Shown here one piece after another: positions 23,621 to 36,350 of a stretch of 64,000 nt of DNA. The stretch is from contig JANQNL010000166.1 of the NCBI GenBank assembly GCA_028279585.1, forward strand, positions 27 to 64,026, given 5' to 3'. Both the position numbers and the translations under genes were made by a program. Within the stretch, counting starts at the first letter, position 1. Every line of letters starts with the position of its first letter. The notes beneath the pieces are model-generated. The model was given only the letters and a program-made list of their open reading frames with translations, was not told the origin of the DNA and searched no databases. The stretch is from Thermoplasmatota archaeon (GTDB taxonomy: Archaea; Thermoplasmatota; Penumbrarchaeia; JANQNL01).

Positions 23621-26600
23621 ATGTTCGGACGCCCTAGAACAGCAGGCCTCATGGCCATAACGCTGACGTTGGTCGTAGTGCTGACGTTCCTTGCAATTCC
23701 AGGAACTAGCGAGGAAGGTCAAGTGCAGACCATTGAGACTAGGGTGTCCGAGGACCCTATGTGGGCAGATGCTGGTCGTATCGAGTGGCGAAAGGACCTT
23801 TCGGGCTCCAACTGGGGCTATACCTCAGCGACCTCCGTCGCTGATGTGAACAATGATGGTTACCTTGAGGTACTGGTCGTTTCCAACAGTTATGGAGAGG
23901 GATACGACAACCGAGAGAGATACTCGACATCGCTCAACATCATCGATAACAACGGCAACGTGATAGACAGCTACAGTCCTGAGAGCACCCATCTGCGTAC
24001 AACGATCCCTCCTATCGTCTGCGACCTAGATGCTGACGGCCAGCTGGAGATCCTCATTGGCGGTTCTGGAGAATCGGCAGACCCTTGGGATTGGAGCTGG
24101 GAGTCTACCTTGCTCTGTCTCGACAGCGACCTGAACCTCCTTTGGACGTTCAACGCGTCCGAGTCATGGACCAACCACTGCCCTGCAGTCGGTGACCTGA
24201 ACAACGATGGCATGCTGGAGATAATCTACGCTGCATCACAGGAGGTCATCTGCATCGACCACAAGGGCGATATGTTATGGGGGATGGAGAGCGACCAGTT
24301 CTGGGACTTCGGGTATTCCCCAAGCATCGAGGACCTTGACCGGGACGGATGGCTGGAGGTCATCCTGGTGACCTGGGATGGCGTGCTCGTCCTGGATGGT
24401 GACCCATCCGACGGGTATGATGATGGAGTTCCGGACTCTGACCACGATCACCTCAAACCGTACAAGCGCACCGACTTCGACCTGCTCTGGTATTTCCAGG
24501 AGAGCATCTTCGGAAAGTGGTGGTGGGGAGACGCTTCTGCCATCGCAGATGTCCGTGGGGATGGGAAGCTCGAGATCATCACAGGGACAGAGAACGGCGT
24601 TCTCGCTTGCTTGGATGCATATGGGAACATGATCTGGAACTCCGAGATAGAGGGAGTTGCATCCACCCCGGTCATCGGGGATGTGGACAATGATGGCAGG
24701 GACGATATCCTGACGCTTACATATGACTGGAACTGGTGGGACGACTGGGGTTGGGAAGAGGACGGAACACTGACCACTAGGGACAACAACACCAACGGGG
24801 ATGATGACGACAAGGATGAGGACCCAGACAGGGACGAGCCATACTGGGAGGATTACTACCACATCGTCTGCATGGACGGTGAGGAAGGGGACATCAAATG
24901 GATGCTCCCTATAGACTGGTGGGGCTCCAACATCATCCTGTGCGACCTGGACATGGACAGGGACCTTGAGGCCATCACAACCTCTGCAGACCAGATCCTA
25001 TGCATCGACTGTGACGAGGATGGGGACGGGGATATCTCCGAGGATGAGATCCTCTGGGAGTTCTCATCTGATTCGTATTACGGATGGTACAACTCGTTCG
25101 TGGTCGCAGACATCGACCTCGACAACCAAATGGAGCTTGTCACCGTGTCAGAGGACATGGTCTATTCCCTCTCCGCAGGCGGCATCTCATCCACAGGCGG
25201 CATCGAGTGGGGCAAGCTGTTCTATGACCTGTACAATACCAATCACTATATTCATCCGATGCAGAGCGGAGTATACGTCTACCCGAAGGATTCTGCATCT
25301 TCGGACGAGAGCATCATGGTCTCCTATGCATCGGCTGGAGAGGTCATCCAGTATGACATGACCGTCCTCAACGCTGGAAAGTATCAGACCTACTATGGCC
25401 AGACCGATGCGGAGTTCTCGGACACTTTCGTGCTCTATGCGGACAATGTTCCAGAAGGATGGTCCGCTGTGCTTTCGAAGCAGCAGGTTACTCTCGGTCC
25501 ACGAGAGACCGAGGACATTACCTTGCAGGTGCAGGTACCTTATGGCGCTGCGAGCGAAGAGGCTGCAAAGATCACCGTGGTAGCGCAAGCTAAGCTTCAG
25601 CCGAGGATCAACGATACTCAGGACACCGTGACGATCGTCAAGGGACGCTACAATGTCAAGCTCAGCTGTGCTGATAACGTCCACGGTGATGGAGTGCCAA
25701 GCGATGATGGTGAGCTCATTGGTGGAGACTCCACAGTGTTCCGCGTCACTGTGACAAACCTTGGGCGTGAGAACGATACCATCATCCTGACCACGGACGC
25801 TCCGTACGGGTTCAATGTGAGCCTGACGGTTCCTGTCATCGAAGGTGAGGCTCGCCTTCCGCTTGGTGCAGGTGAAGCCCGTGACGTTCTAATGATCGTG
25901 GACATCCCGACCTGGGCCACAGGTGGGGACTACATTATCAATATAACAGGGACATCGGAAGGAGATCCAGATGTCTCGGATACGCTTTCTACCACCACCC
26001 GGGTGATGGGTGCGTTCGCTAACATCGTGCTGCGCTGCGACGATCCGGTCAAGGACATCGAGCCAGGCCAGACCTTGGTCTACAACCTGACAGTTCTCAA
26101 CTTCTTAGGGGATGAACTGGAGGTGGAGATAAACCTCACAAGCCCAGACCTTGAGTACGGCTGGGAAGCAAGCTTATCTGCAAACCCTGTGACCGTTGCG
26201 GGATTCGATGCTACAGAACTTACATTGATGATCACGGCTCCGGATGATGCCCTTGCTGACACGCTAGCGGTGTTCGACCTTTCCGCTTCGGTGGAAGGTA
26301 ACATCATGCTGCGCGACCAGCTTCGGGTCTATGCTCGTGTCATTCACGTGTACGGCCTGGACACACAGTTATCCCAGGACATCGCATCCCTGGTCCCAGA
26401 GGGCGTGGTCCATCTGACCCTGGAAGTGGAGAACACCGGTAACGGCTTCGATCACTGGGGGTTGTTCTACGAGGACATCCCTGGAGAATGGACCATCGAG
26501 CGCGACTCGAACCCGATGACGCTTGACCCGCGGAACAAGACCACGCAGACCATCCTGTTCAACATAACTGTGCCTAGATCTGCAGTTGTAGGGACGTACG

Positions 26601-36100: not shown

Positions 36101-36350
36101 GGAGGAGACCGAGTCAAGGCTCGACGCGATCAAGCGAAAGGTCAAAGAGTTTCAAGCGAGCGAGCAGGCCGGAGGGGGAGCGGCGGAGGCCGGCGCAGCG
36201 AGCGATAGGGGGGAGGCTGGTGGGCCGGACGGGGACTCTTCAGACAGCAAGCCTGCAAAAGCAGAGAATCCTTTCAAGGACGACAAGACAAAGAAAAGCA
36301 AGGGCAAAGGCAAGAAAGGCAAGTCCAAAAAGAAAGGAGGTGACGCTTAA
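30180..36350 (+). CDS. giant (2056 aa) transglutaminase-core protein: signal peptide, TSP3 repeats, TGase-like Cys-His-Asp core, hyper-acidic DDDNDG array, Ig-like stalk, TM, cytoplasmic DUF4129-like domain, Gly/Lys-rich tail
   Basis: The ATG overlaps the upstream stop (ATGA), with GGAGGG upstream. The signal is [21 protein letters not shown]. The TGase core at about 31365-31575 reads [53 protein letters not shown] occurs 10 times. The TM is [24 protein letters not shown] followed by GRSRRKK. The DUF4129-like stretch at about 35955-36145 reads [25 protein letters not shown]. Confidence 0.8.
36158..36245 (+). repeat. G-run-rich element (inside the 3' end of the transglutaminase gene)
   Basis: GAGCGAGCAGGCCGGAGGGGGAGCGGCGGAGGCCGGCGCAGCGAGCGATAGGGGGGAGGCTGGTGGGCCGGACGGGGACTCTTCAGAC. 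It shares GAGCGAGCAGG, the G-runs and GGGGACTCTTC with the other copies. Confidence 0.7.

What the first reader, a model, noticed from the sequence alone, without database searches (positions are those of the whole stretch)
23621..36350. Integrin/ECM-like domain inventory encoded side by side (FG-GAP propeller, TSP3 Ca-repeats, transglutaminase, VWA-like DUF58)
Three adjacent ectodomain proteins carry an eight-blade FG-GAP-type propeller (integrin-alpha-like), thrombospondin type-3 calcium-binding repeats and a papain-like transglutaminase core. The next genes encode a VWA-like DUF58 and its MoxR partner. In animals the same domain families (integrin alpha propeller, beta-I/VWA domain, thrombospondin, TG2/factor XIII) cooperate in matrix adhesion and covalent matrix cross-linking. 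Finding them as one operon in an archaeon is at least a striking convergence. It gives a testable functional hypothesis: Ca-dependent adhesion with isopeptide cross-linking.
Basis: inference. Interest (0 to 1): 0.6.

Follow-up and report, generated by a model that had tools for sequence, protein, structure and literature searches.

The report
Archaeal MoxR surface-protein operon, dead transglutaminase
However, they belong to an already predicted, still untested archaeal envelope gene cluster (MoxR ATPase, DUF58, DUF4350, DUF4129-tailed giant surface protein), and its transglutaminase-like head has lost the catalytic cysteine, so an integrin-like cross-linking system is unlikely.

Summary
The domain inventory is real. 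Gene C carries an eight-blade FG-GAP propeller. Gene D is a TSP3 calcium-repeat protein. Gene E is a 2056-aa protein with TSP3 repeats, a TgpA-type transglutaminase fold, an Ig-like stalk, a TM helix and a DUF4129 tail. DUF4350, MoxR, DUF58 and a polytopic membrane protein follow. From B to K the gaps run from -20 to +35 nt.

The block B-I keeps the same order in relative G015, and the same order recurs on metagenome contigs L029/L030 (proteins 41-44% identical). G032 holds part of it.

The core grammar is a DUF4129-tailed surface protein, DUF4350, DUF58, sometimes MoxR, and a small membrane protein. It recurs across the class and in at least three other cassettes of this genome. It matches the arCOG01314 "secretion or membrane-remodelling complex" predicted by Makarova et al. 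2015, and the bacterial MoxR-DUF58-TgpA operon.

The true nucleophile column holds Pro400 in E and Ser in both full-length orthologues, which also have Lys in place of His. The "VLCR" Cys411 sits in a buried helix position.

The propeller is closest to bacterial eight-blade propellers (Bap1, BamB, PQQ type), not to integrin alpha. DUF58 has no DxSxS MIDAS motif and is probably cytoplasmic.

Verdict: a lineage-specific variant of a known, uncharacterised envelope module, with a pseudo-transglutaminase. Interest is modest.

The parts
17081..17562 (.). 482-nt divergent intergenic region between giant gene A (minus strand) and gene B. It is the only gap in the block large enough for a promoter, so it is the inferred start of the B-to-I(K) transcription unit.
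   Evidence: Gap table. All downstream gaps are between -20 and +35 nt. No RNA data are available.
17563..23607 (+). Gene B: a 2014-aa type I surface protein. It has a signal or anchor sequence, CBM_56, a weak DUF2194/DUF4159/ABC_transp_aux-like segment, a C-terminal TM helix and a cytoplasmic double zinc ribbon.
   Evidence: Pfam, topology. An orthologous CBM56+DZR giant holds the same position in G015, and a 2002-aa gene sits there in L029.
23621..27757 (+). Gene C: a 1378-aa type I surface protein. It has an eight-blade FG-GAP propeller (about aa 52-545, nt 23774-25255), Ig-like NPCBM_assoc / CARDB / choice-of-anchor-T domains, a TM helix and a Lys-rich tail.
   Evidence: Pfam, NCBIfam, motifs, AF2, Foldseek. 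Orthologues at 41-43% identity hold the same position in G015, G032 and L029.
27793..30183 (+). Gene D: a 796-aa type II (N-in) membrane-anchored protein made almost wholly of TSP3-type calcium-binding repeats (18 motifs). It has no Cys.
   Evidence: TSP3_bac 1.2e-26. Motif count and TM. Repeat-level similarity to CglD and MtsD lies below their cut-offs. Orthologues in G015 (777 aa) and L029 (824 aa).
30180..36350 (+). Gene E: a 2056-aa type I surface glycoprotein candidate with 60 N-x-S/T sequons. In order it has a signal sequence, two TSP3 repeats, a TgpA-like head, an Asp-rich TSP3-like region (aa 480-957), an Ig-like stalk (CarboxypepD_reg, MG2, Big_3_5), a TM helix (aa 1849-1880), a cytoplasmic DUF4129 (aa 1914-1976) and a Lys-rich tail.
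   Evidence: Pfam, topology and sequons, motifs.
30630..31640 (+). TgpA-type head of E (aa 151-487): an N-terminal beta-sandwich plus a transglutaminase-like core. The catalytic positions read Pro400 (31377-31379, CCG), His444 (31509-31511) and Asp460 (31557-31559). Cys411 (31410-31412) is a buried helix residue, not the nucleophile.
   Evidence: AF2 gives pTM 0.84 with helix 250-263 starting at the Pro. Foldseek's best hit is TgpA 6g49 at 1.8e-13.
36351..37739 (+). Gene F: a 462-aa DUF4350 (arCOG01314-type, GldG/GIFT-like) protein with an N-terminal TM helix, an ectodomain, a second weaker hydrophobic segment and a cytoplasmic tail.
   Evidence: DUF4350 9.5e-9 and ABC_transp_aux 2e-7. The same position is held in G015, G013, G016, G001, C84 and C193.
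37743..38993 (+). Gene G: a MoxR-family AAA+ ATPase (AAA_3 plus AAA_lid_2) with a low-complexity N-terminal extension of about 95 aa. It has no signal peptide or TM helix, so it is cytoplasmic.
   Evidence: AAA_3 4.1e-65, no TM. A paralogue at 62% identity lies on C84.
38983..40302 (+). Gene H: a 439-aa DUF58 protein. It has an N-terminal TM hairpin followed by a K/R-rich linker and then an Ig-like plus VWA-like body. The MIDAS position reads D-x-R.
   Evidence: DUF58 5.6e-12, topology, alignment A5. It lies within 4-9 kb of the TGase gene in at least 18 loci of the class.
40283..41014 (+). Gene I: a 243-aa polytopic membrane protein (about 5-6 TM helices) with no family assignment. A gene of this kind follows DUF58 in every cassette examined, but sequence similarity between cassettes is barely detectable.
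   Evidence: No Pfam or NCBIfam hit, TM segments, comparisons.
41007..41558 (+). Gene J: a 183-aa CAP/SCP (YkwD-like) protein with a lipobox-like signal. It overlaps the end of I, but it is not part of the block conserved in G015, so membership is uncertain.
   Evidence: CAP 6.9e-16, YkwD 2e-17. In G015 gene orientation changes after the small membrane gene.

Best explanation
The region is a lineage-specific, enlarged copy of a widespread but uncharacterised prokaryotic envelope module.

Core of the module (E-F-G-H-I):
- a giant type I surface protein whose cytoplasmic tail is a DUF4129 domain;
- a membrane-anchored DUF4350 (GldG/GIFT-like) ectodomain protein;
- a cytoplasmic MoxR AAA+ ATPase;
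- its membrane-tethered VWA-like DUF58 adaptor;
- a small polytopic membrane protein.

Proposed mechanism (inferred, not shown):
- The MoxR ring and DUF58 act from the cytoplasmic face on the DUF4129 tail and on the membrane partners.
- They assemble, insert or conformationally switch a surface complex.
- Genes B (CBM56 giant), C (eight-blade calcium-loop propeller) and D (TSP3 repeat protein) encode co-expressed, membrane-anchored, calcium-stiffened components or cargo of that complex. These probably act in attachment to a surface or a polymer.
- The transglutaminase-like head of E is a TgpA-type fold that has lost its nucleophile. It most likely serves as a binding or structural module, not as a cross-linking enzyme.

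Shown: domain content, gene packing, synteny, loss of the Cys, and the predicted folds.
Inferred: co-transcription, membrane topology, the MoxR/DUF58-DUF4129 contact, calcium binding and the adhesive role.
For: Domains.

Packing: gaps of 13, 35, -4, 0, 3, -11, -20, -8 and -4 nt from B to K.

Synteny:
- The same eight-gene order occurs in G015 (a different family of the class).
- It occurs partly in G032.
- It occurs on two metagenome contigs carrying P0034.
- Proteins are 41-44% identical.

Core grammar elsewhere:
- G013, G016 and G001 have a giant TGase+TSP3+DUF4129 protein, then DUF4350, DUF58 and a small membrane or unassigned gene.
- DUF58 lies within 4-9 kb of the TGase gene in at least 18 loci.
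- In the same genome, C84 has a DUF4129-tailed giant without a TGase core, then DUF4350, MoxR, DUF58 and a membrane protein.
- C193 has an intact C-H-E TGase with TSP3 and DUF4129, then DUF4350 and DUF58.
- C134 has a degenerate T-R-E TGase-like ORF beside a DUF58.

Literature:
- arCOG01314 (DUF4350) + MoxR + Ig-vWA + Ig-like surface proteins + small TM proteins was predicted to be a novel secretion or membrane-remodelling complex (PMC5898192).
- PA2875 (MoxR), PA2874 (DUF58) and tgpA are co-transcribed, and TgpA has TGase activity in vitro (PMC3507681).
- The bifidobacterial PFNA cluster has the order pkb2-fn3-MoxR-duf58-tgm (PMC8430577).

Dead enzyme:
- The nucleophile column holds Pro in E, while at least 90% of 31 aligned homologues have Cys.
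- The profile aligns this column to Cys of TgpA and to Cys314 of FXIII.
- G015 and P0034 read S-K-D.
- The Pro codon CCG needs at least two changes to become a Cys codon.
- The fold is retained: pTM 0.84, and TgpA 6g49 is the best Foldseek hit.

Topology.
Against: - There is no expression or biochemical data. No RNA run holds the locus.
- No physical evidence shows that MoxR or DUF58 touches DUF4129. Makarova et al. considered the Ig-vWA protein likely secreted, which conflicts with my cytoplasmic placement. That placement rests only on the positive-inside rule.
- DUF4129 in E itself scores just below Pfam's cut-off (22.3 against 24.8 bits).
- In several relatives MoxR is not adjacent to the cassette.
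- The FG-GAP and CBM56 genes are linked to the cassette in only a few lineages, so they could be passengers.
- A non-canonical catalytic mechanism cannot be excluded from sequence alone (Thr401, or a Ser/Lys dyad in the orthologues).
Confidence: 0.68

Rival explanations
1. One reading: an integrin/ECM-like system. The FG-GAP propeller, the VWA-like DUF58 and the TSP3 protein would mediate calcium-dependent adhesion, and the transglutaminase would covalently cross-link the matrix by isopeptide bonds.
For: All four domain families are present and genetically linked. Calcium-type motifs are abundant. TgpA, the nearest characterised relative, has transamidase activity in vitro (PMC3507681). Integrin alphaIIb is among the significant structural matches of the propeller (rank 20, 5.9e-9).
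Against: - The nucleophile is Pro in E and Ser in both orthologues, and His is Lys in the orthologues.
- The propeller has eight blades and is closest to bacterial eight-blade propellers.
- DUF58 lacks DxSxS and is probably cytoplasmic.
- The TGase head resembles TgpA far more than TG2 or FXIII.
- The cassette grammar persists without any TGase core (C84).
Confidence: 0.06
2. E is still an enzyme that works by a non-canonical mechanism. It could be a hydrolase or transferase using Thr401, Cys411 or, in the orthologues, a Ser/Lys dyad. It would process or anchor the neighbouring surface proteins.
For: His444 and Asp460 are kept in E. Ser replaces Cys in 19% of 177 related domains, which suggests a tolerated and possibly functional variant. 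The orthologues have Ser and Lys exactly at the two catalytic positions. The fold is well conserved.
Against: - Pro cannot act as a nucleophile.
- Cys411 lies 11 residues down the same helix. Its column is mostly Ala, Leu or Tyr in homologues and Leu in TgpA and FXIII, so it is a buried structural position.
- The three orthologues do not share one alternative catalytic set (P-H-D against S-K-D).
- The nearest multi-copy relative, P0033, has seven copies that are all non-canonical.
Confidence: 0.1
3. B, C and D are only neighbours. The genome is full of giant surface-protein genes, and these three happen to lie upstream of an independent E-I cassette without a functional link.
For: The FG-GAP/CBM56 linkage is seen in few lineages: 3 of 41 genomes held, plus one metagenomic lineage. 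Most cassettes of the class lack these genes. The genome has many other giant surface proteins.
Against: Order and orientation are kept in lineages whose proteins have diverged to 41-44% identity. The gaps of 13, 35 and -4 nt leave little room for separate promoters. TSP3 repeats are fused into the TGase protein itself in other cassettes, which links that module to the core.
Confidence: 0.12
4. The locus is a MoxR-vWA 'ternary' biological-conflict (defence) system of the kind described by Kaur et al. 2020, with the beta-propeller as third component.
For: MoxR, a vWA-like protein and a beta-propeller are all present. The MoxR of G015, C84 and L030 passes the bpMoxR model (40.4 and 37.7 bits against cut-off 27). 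The window's MoxR scores 23.3 bits.
Against: AAA_3 scores about 218 bits, far above bpMoxR, in all of them. The propeller here is an exported FG-GAP ectodomain, not a cytoplasmic component. No VMAP, iSTAND, FtsH, effector or EAD domain is present (PMC7159879). All other products are envelope proteins.
Confidence: 0.03

Closest known systems
arCOG01314 (DUF4350)-associated predicted secretion or membrane-remodelling complex of archaea (Makarova, Galperin and Koonin 2015, PMC5898192)
   Same: It has a membrane-anchored DUF4350/GldG-like ectodomain protein, a MoxR/GvpN-family AAA+ ATPase, an Ig+vWA (DUF58-type) protein, surface proteins with Ig-like domains and small multi-TM proteins, all in one predicted operon. 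All are present here.
   Different: The window adds a TgpA-like (dead) transglutaminase head and a DUF4129 tail on the giant protein, and three extra giant or repeat proteins (CBM56, FG-GAP propeller, TSP3). arCOG membership could not be tested directly because no arCOG library was available. The published system is itself only a prediction.
TgpA operon of Pseudomonas aeruginosa (PA2875 MoxR - PA2874 DUF58 - PA2873 TgpA; PMC3507681; structure 6g49)
   Same: The MoxR, DUF58 and transglutaminase-like membrane protein genes are linked. The head of E is the best sequence and fold match to the TgpA periplasmic domain.
   Different: TgpA has an intact Cys-His-Asp triad, calcium-independent TGase activity in vitro and a polytopic N-terminal domain. 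E has Pro-His-Asp, a single signal or anchor sequence, a stalk of about 1400 aa and TSP3 repeats. A DUF4350 gene is also present here.
PFNA cluster of bifidobacteria (pkb2-fn3-aaa(MoxR)-duf58-tgm; PMC8430577)
   Same: A large surface or adhesion protein gene lies next to MoxR, DUF58 and a transglutaminase-like membrane protein, all transcribed in one direction.
   Different: PFNA is bacterial. It includes a Ser/Thr kinase and an FN3 protein, and it has no DUF4350, propeller or TSP3 proteins.
Vibrio cholerae Bap1 (6mlt) and other bacterial eight-blade propellers (YxaL, BamB, PQQ dehydrogenases, PL11 lyase)
   Same: They share the eight-bladed beta-propeller fold. Bap1 ranks fourth among solved structures (3e-12) and is an extracellular biofilm-matrix protein. 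Sequence relatives of C are FG-GAP/PQQ-like hybrid propellers.
   Different: Identity is low (about 14%). C carries two conserved loop inserts and is membrane-anchored through an Ig-like stalk. No ligand is known.
Myxococcus TSP3-repeat proteins CglD (gliding adhesion lipoprotein) and MtsD (cell-cell cohesion)
   Same: They contain arrays of bacterial TSP3 calcium-binding repeats in cell-surface proteins. D matches at the repeat level (129 and 79 bits).
   Different: The scores are far below the family cut-offs (400 and 800 bits), so only the repeats are shared. D has no VWA domain and is type II anchored.
Animal integrin alpha/beta, thrombospondin and TG2/factor XIII
   Same: They share superfamily-level domains: FG-GAP propeller, VWA-like fold, TSP3-type Dx[DN]xDG repeats and the papain-like TGase fold.
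   Different: Integrin alpha has seven blades, and C has eight. Integrin beta has an extracellular MIDAS domain, while DUF58 reads D-x-R and is probably cytoplasmic. TG2 and FXIII are active, and E has a dead site. Animal TGases give only marginal fold matches (about 1e-2). Dx[DN]xDG motifs are widespread in bacteria and archaea (PMC3123361).

Membership tests
Transglutaminase-like superfamily, TgpA type | Match to Pfam Transglut_core (PF01841) above the gathering score | tested here: met
   63.2 bits against cut-off 23, aa 328-461 of E.
Transglutaminase-like superfamily, TgpA type | Fold of the ectodomain head like the TgpA periplasmic domain | tested here: met
   AF2 pTM 0.84. Foldseek 6g49 at 1.8e-13, TM-score 0.58 normalised to the query and 0.67 to the target, over 321 columns.
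Transglutaminase-like superfamily, TgpA type | Catalytic Cys-His-Asp/Glu triad | tested here: not met
   E reads Pro400-His444-Asp460. The column is aligned to Cys of TgpA and to Cys314 of FXIII, and at least 90% of 31 homologues have Cys there. The orthologues read S-K-D.
Transglutaminase-like superfamily, TgpA type | Gene linkage with MoxR and DUF58 | tested here: met
   E-F-G-H are contiguous and conserved in G015 and L030.
Transglutaminase-like superfamily, TgpA type | Polytopic N-terminal membrane domain (TgpA_N, PF11992) | tested here: not met
   E has no TgpA_N hit and only one N-terminal hydrophobic segment. Relatives in G013 and G040 give weak sub-threshold TgpA_N hits.
Transglutaminase-like superfamily, TgpA type | C-terminal DUF4129 after the last TM helix | tested here: inconclusive
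   E aa 1914-1976 scores 22.3 bits, E-value 1.3e-4, just below cut-off 24.8. Homologous giants in G013, G040, G016, G001, C84 and C193 score above the cut-off.
arCOG01314-associated predicted archaeal secretion or membrane-remodelling complex | DUF4350 protein with a signal or anchor sequence, a large ectodomain and a C-terminal TM helix | tested here: met
   F: DUF4350 at 36.2 bits against cut-off 30.4. The C-terminal hydrophobic segment is visible in the sequence but falls below my hydropathy threshold.
arCOG01314-associated predicted archaeal secretion or membrane-remodelling complex | Adjacent MoxR/GvpN-family AAA+ ATPase (COG0714) and an Ig+vWA protein | tested here: met
   G: AAA_3 at 218 bits. 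H: DUF58 at 45.8 bits.
arCOG01314-associated predicted archaeal secretion or membrane-remodelling complex | Neighbouring surface proteins with Ig-like domains and small multi-TM proteins | tested here: met
   C and E have Ig-like stalks. I is polytopic.
arCOG01314-associated predicted archaeal secretion or membrane-remodelling complex | Assignment of the proteins to the named arCOGs | not testable with these tools
   No arCOG profile library was available. The assignment rests on the Pfam equivalence stated in PMC5898192.
Integrin-type adhesion receptor (alpha propeller plus beta-I domain) | Seven-bladed FG-GAP propeller of the integrin alpha type | tested here: not met
   Eight blade motifs, 33 strands. 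The best matches are eight-blade propellers, and integrin alphaIIb is at rank 20 with TMq 0.47.
Integrin-type adhesion receptor (alpha propeller plus beta-I domain) | Extracellular VWA/beta-I domain with a DxSxS MIDAS motif that pairs with the propeller | tested here: not met
   DUF58 reads D-x-R at that position in all five aligned archaeal members. A TM hairpin followed by a K/R-rich stretch predicts a cytoplasmic body (the topology is an inference).
FG-GAP repeat (PF01839) propeller | Pfam match above cut-off and repeated Dx[DN]xDGxx[DE] loops | tested here: met
   57 bits against 22.1. Five blade loops match strictly (a sixth strict match at aa 463 lies in an insert). Three more blade loops match loosely.
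Bacterial TSP3 repeat (PF18884) | Pfam match above cut-off | tested here: met
   D: 92.7 bits. E: 27.9 bits. Cut-off 25.
MoxR-vWA ternary conflict systems (Kaur et al. 2020) | A third conserved component (VMAP, iSTAND, FtsH-type or cytoplasmic beta-propeller) with effector or EAD domains | tested here: not met
   None found by Pfam or NCBIfam. The propeller is exported. The system description comes from PMC7159879.

The most novel reading that the evidence does not exclude
The conserved eight-gene block could be an inside-out controlled adhesion machine of Thermoplasmatota. A cytoplasmic MoxR ring, working through the membrane-tethered DUF58 adaptor, would pull on or remodel the DUF4129 tail of E. 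This would switch the conformation or clustering of a calcium-stiffened ectodomain complex. That complex would comprise the pseudo-transglutaminase head as ligand clamp, the eight-blade propeller and the TSP3 rods. In logic, though not in ancestry, this would parallel integrin activation, and it would give the long-predicted arCOG01314 module a function.
Probability: 0.12. Interest if true: 0.7.

Novelty: new variant of a known kind. Interest (0 to 1): 0.3.

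Why it matters
The MoxR-DUF58-DUF4350-DUF4129 module is one of the most widespread archaeal and bacterial envelope gene sets that still has no known function. It was predicted in 2015 to be a new secretion or membrane-remodelling system, and its bacterial TgpA version is essential in Pseudomonas.

This locus adds two useful facts:
- The transglutaminase chemistry is dispensable. 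It is dead here, degenerate or absent in two sister cassettes of the same genome, and intact in two other paralogues (C193, C67). The constant partner is therefore the DUF4129-tailed surface protein, not the enzyme.
- In a few Thermoplasmatota lineages the module is stably joined to specific calcium-binding giant surface proteins, which are candidate cargo or partners.

Neither fact reveals a new kind of system. The integrin/ECM analogy that made the finding attractive does not hold.

Tried and rejected
- A scan of genome contigs with the TGase head found nothing confirmable.
- A word-indexed protein search with the head found only the query itself. The exhaustive HMMER search was needed.
- No RNA-seq run holds the locus. 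The only holder is the coral metagenome DNA run that the window probably came from. Co-expression therefore could not be tested.
- The Rfam scan of the window gave no family.
- The tandem-repeat scan gave only three trivial 15-nt coding repeats.
- I looked for sequence homology between the small membrane proteins that follow DUF58 in different cassettes. Similarity was essentially undetectable: best E-value 6e-4 over 35 aa.
- I considered a MoxR-vWA conflict-system reading and rejected it.
- I considered a sequencing error at the Pro codon and rejected it. CCG needs at least two changes to become a Cys codon, and the orthologues also lack Cys.
- I considered the 'VLCR' Cys as a migrated nucleophile and rejected it. 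It lies 11 residues down the helix, and its column is Ala, Leu or Tyr in homologues.
- The structure tools return no coordinates, so the Cys411-His444 distance could not be measured.

Full report
**What is there**

The window is contig C40 of a 3.8-Mb archaeal MAG that is 85% complete.
- It is archaeal: Ribosomal_S8e scores 138 bits.
- The best named S8e relatives are Thermoplasmata, Thermoplasmatota and Methanomassiliicoccales MAGs, at no more than 67% identity.
- The only sequencing run that holds the locus is a coral metagenome.

On the plus strand, from 17563 to 42601, ten genes are packed with gaps of 13, 35, -4, 0, 3, -11, -20, -8 and -4 nt. A 482-nt divergent intergenic region precedes them.

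Pfam, NCBIfam and a hydropathy scan give the following picture.
- **B:** 2014 aa, type I, with CBM_56 and a cytoplasmic double zinc ribbon.
- **C:** 1378 aa, type I, with an FG-GAP propeller, an NPCBM_assoc/CARDB/choice-of-anchor-T stalk and a Lys-rich tail.
- **D:** 796 aa, type II, made of TSP3_bac repeats.
- **E:** 2056 aa, type I. In order: TSP3, Transglut_core, an Asp-rich region, CarboxypepD_reg/MG2/Big_3_5 Ig-like domains, a TM helix, DUF4129 and a Lys-rich tail. It has 60 N-x-S/T sequons.
- **F:** DUF4350.
- **G:** MoxR AAA_3.
- **H:** DUF58, with a TM hairpin followed by a K/R-rich linker.
- **I:** a polytopic membrane protein with no family.
- **J:** a CAP/YkwD-like lipoprotein candidate.
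- **K:** DUF1848.

**Checking the observation**

The propeller is real and has eight blades.
- Eight Dx[DN]xD[G]-type blade loops lie at aa 75, 135, 192, 238, 310, 354, 442 and 497.
- The AF2 model, built from a 16-sequence alignment, has 33 strands, pTM 0.80 and mean pLDDT 75.7.
- Foldseek's best solved matches are eight-blade propellers: designed Cake8/9/10, V. cholerae Bap1, YxaL, BamB, PQQ dehydrogenases and PL11 lyase.
- Integrin alphaIIb comes only at rank 20.
- Sequence relatives are generic FG-GAP/PQQ-like propellers of secreted prokaryotic proteins. Some are fused to TSP3 repeats.

The TSP3 content is also real: 18 full motifs in D and 23 in E.

The transglutaminase fold is real too, but it is of the bacterial TgpA type.
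- The 337-aa head of E gives an AF2 model with pTM 0.84.
- Its best structural match is the TgpA periplasmic domain 6g49 (1.8e-13). Animal TG2 and FXIII reach only about 1e-2.

**The catalytic site**

Alignment shows otherwise.
- I aligned the core with eleven homologues from the same class and two phylum-level relatives, and searched a profile of that alignment against PDB sequences.
- The nucleophile column is the one holding Cys in TgpA ('SGFCAHYAG') and Cys314 in factor XIII ('GQCWVFAG').
- In E this column is Pro400 ('[10 protein letters not shown]'). His444 and Asp460 align to FXIII His373 and Asp396.
- In a second alignment of 31 more distant homologues, the same column is at least 90% Cys.
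- In the AF2 model the helix begins exactly at this Pro, as expected for the papain-like nucleophile position. Cys411 lies 11 residues further along the helix.
- The Cys411 column is Leu in TgpA and FXIII and mostly Ala, Leu or Tyr in homologues.
- The Pro codon is CCG, so a single-base error cannot explain it.

An exhaustive HMMER search followed by a tally of 177 TGase-like domains in the 69 nearest proteins gave:
- C-H-E/D in 109 domains;
- S-H-D/E in 33 domains;
- A-H-D/E in 10 domains;
- assorted degenerate sets in the rest.

E reads P-H-D. Its two full-length orthologues, G015 and P0034, are 43% identical to each other and both read S-K-D. The next nearest protein, P0033, has seven copies, none of them canonical. 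Within the same genome, the paralogues on C67 and C193 keep C-H-E, and one on C134 reads T-R-E.

The orthologue group of E has therefore lacked a canonical active site for a long time while keeping the fold.

**Context and conservation**

- The eight-gene order is CBM56 giant, FG-GAP, TSP3, TGase, DUF4350, MoxR, DUF58, small membrane protein.
- It is repeated in G015, a different family of the class, and partly in G032.
- It is also repeated on two metagenome contigs that carry P0034.
- The propellers are 41-43% identical.
- Other class members lack the FG-GAP and CBM56 genes. They keep a giant TGase + TSP3 + CarboxypepD_reg + DUF4129 protein followed by DUF4350, DUF58 and a small membrane or unassigned gene.
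- Across the 41 genomes searched, DUF58 lies within 4-9 kb of the TGase gene in at least 18 loci.
- The window's own genome holds further cassettes with the same grammar:
  - C84 has a DUF4129-tailed 1288-aa protein without any TGase core, then DUF4350, MoxR (62% identical to G), DUF58, a membrane protein and a CARDB protein.
  - C193 has TGase (C-H-E) + TSP3 x8 + DUF4129, then DUF4350 and DUF58.

The constant elements are therefore the DUF4129-tailed type I protein, DUF4350, DUF58 and, often, MoxR and a fast-evolving polytopic protein. The enzyme, the TSP3 arrays and the propeller are variable decorations.

**What is known**

- Makarova, Galperin and Koonin (PMC5898192) described arCOG01314 (DUF4350, GldG-like). 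It occurs in operons with a COG0714 MoxR/GvpN ATPase, an Ig+vWA protein, Ig-like surface proteins and small TM proteins. They proposed a novel secretion or membrane-remodelling complex. It has not been tested.
- In Pseudomonas aeruginosa, PA2875 (MoxR), PA2874 (DUF58) and tgpA are co-transcribed. TgpA is essential, and its periplasmic domain has calcium-independent TGase activity (PMC3507681).
- Bifidobacteria have pkb2-fn3-MoxR-duf58-tgm (PMC8430577).
- Dx[DN]xDG calcium motifs, including FG-GAP and TSP3, are widespread in bacteria and archaea (PMC3123361, listed).
- Notes from this scan report similar clusters in Asgard and Marine Group III archaea, some with dead TGase heads. These agree with my reading, but they are not independent evidence.

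**How it most likely works**

Shown:
- the domain content;
- the tight packing;
- the conserved order;
- the fold predictions;
- the loss of the nucleophile.

Inferred:
- B to I are co-transcribed from the 17081-17562 region.
- B, C and E are exported and anchored by C-terminal TM helices, and D is anchored by an N-terminal one.
- Their acidic Dx[DN]xDG arrays bind Ca2+ and stiffen the ectodomains.
- The MoxR hexamer and the DUF58 body sit on the cytoplasmic face. MoxR has no signal peptide. DUF58 has a hairpin flanked by positive charge.
- There they engage the DUF4129 tail of E, and perhaps the tails of F, B and C. This would drive assembly, insertion or a conformational switch of a surface complex that also contains the DUF4350 ectodomain and the polytopic protein I.
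- The head of E acts as a non-catalytic binding or structural module.

DUF58 reads D-x-R where a VWA MIDAS motif would be DxSxS, in all five archaeal members aligned. Metal-mediated ligand binding of the integrin type is therefore not expected.

**Rivals**

- The integrin/ECM cross-linking model fails on the active site, the blade number, the MIDAS motif and topology, and the TgpA rather than animal affinity of the TGase fold.
- A non-canonical enzyme cannot be excluded from sequence (Thr401, or a Ser/Lys dyad in the orthologues). However, the orthologues do not share one alternative catalytic set.
- B-D could be mere neighbours, but order is conserved at 41-44% protein identity, and TSP3 is fused into the TGase protein elsewhere.
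- A MoxR-vWA conflict system lacks its defining third component and effectors.

**Verdict**

The attractive part, an integrin/ECM analogy with isopeptide cross-linking, is not supported.

The locus is a lineage-specific variant of a known, predicted but uncharacterised envelope module, and it carries a pseudo-transglutaminase.

Its main value is as evidence that TGase chemistry is optional in this module, and as a source of candidate partner or cargo proteins for future experiments.

Noticed in passing
window 49656-52625 (-): A 989-aa secreted protein joins a PETase/cutinase-like alpha/beta hydrolase domain (PF12740, 3e-14) to six PKD domains. This is a polyester-hydrolase-like enzyme in a coral-associated archaeon.
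   Followed up: no
window 47194-49242 (-): An EF-Tu-like GTPase (408 aa) lies next to a PAPS_reduct-family protein (270 aa). The pair looks like CysN/CysD sulfate adenylyltransferase.
   Followed up: no
L002 / L013:8034-13955 (G015) and P0034 (L029:10001-15952): The two full-length orthologues of E carry Ser and Lys exactly at the Cys and His positions of the transglutaminase fold (S-K-D). Ser replaces Cys in 19% of 177 related domains. A Ser/Lys dyad in a papain-like fold would be unusual, and it is untested.
   Followed up: partly
window 24400-24500 and 24690-24720 (gene C, aa about 262-290 and 359-368): Two loop inserts of the propeller are conserved in all orthologues: an acidic 'DGDPSDGxDDGVxDSDH' and a Trp-rich 'DWNWWDDW'. 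They are candidate ligand or partner sites. Blade 5 also happens to read 'VRGDGK'.
   Followed up: no
G000 contigs C84:59-10728, C193:10586-17038, C134:61192-67751, C67:1-4973: The same genome holds at least three further DUF58 cassettes with the same grammar. C84 has no TGase core, C134 has a degenerate T-R-E domain, and C193 has an intact C-H-E triad. A separate C-H-E giant lies on C67, with no DUF58 hit on that contig.
   Followed up: partly
window 40283-41014 (+) and the equivalent genes in L013, L022 and L028: A small polytopic membrane protein follows DUF58 in every cassette, but it shows almost no sequence similarity between cassettes. It is a positionally conserved, fast-evolving component.
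   Followed up: partly
window 17563-23607 (+), aa 1359-1478 of B: Weak DUF2194, DUF4159 and ABC_transp_aux hits suggest that the giant B contains a GATase1/GIFT-like module of the same fold class as DUF4350.
   Followed up: no
window 9980-17080 (-): The divergently oriented 2366-aa giant A has beta-helix/NosD repeats, InhA-like MAM domains, TSP3 repeats, a TM helix and a Cys-rich, Lys-rich tail. The surface-protein island therefore extends beyond the finding.
   Followed up: no
L031:7250-15286 (P0033, JGI metagenome contig): A 2678-aa protein has seven tandem TGase-like domains, none with a canonical triad. It lies next to a 1896-aa S8 peptidase protein, with no MoxR or DUF58 on the 25 kb examined.
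   Followed up: no
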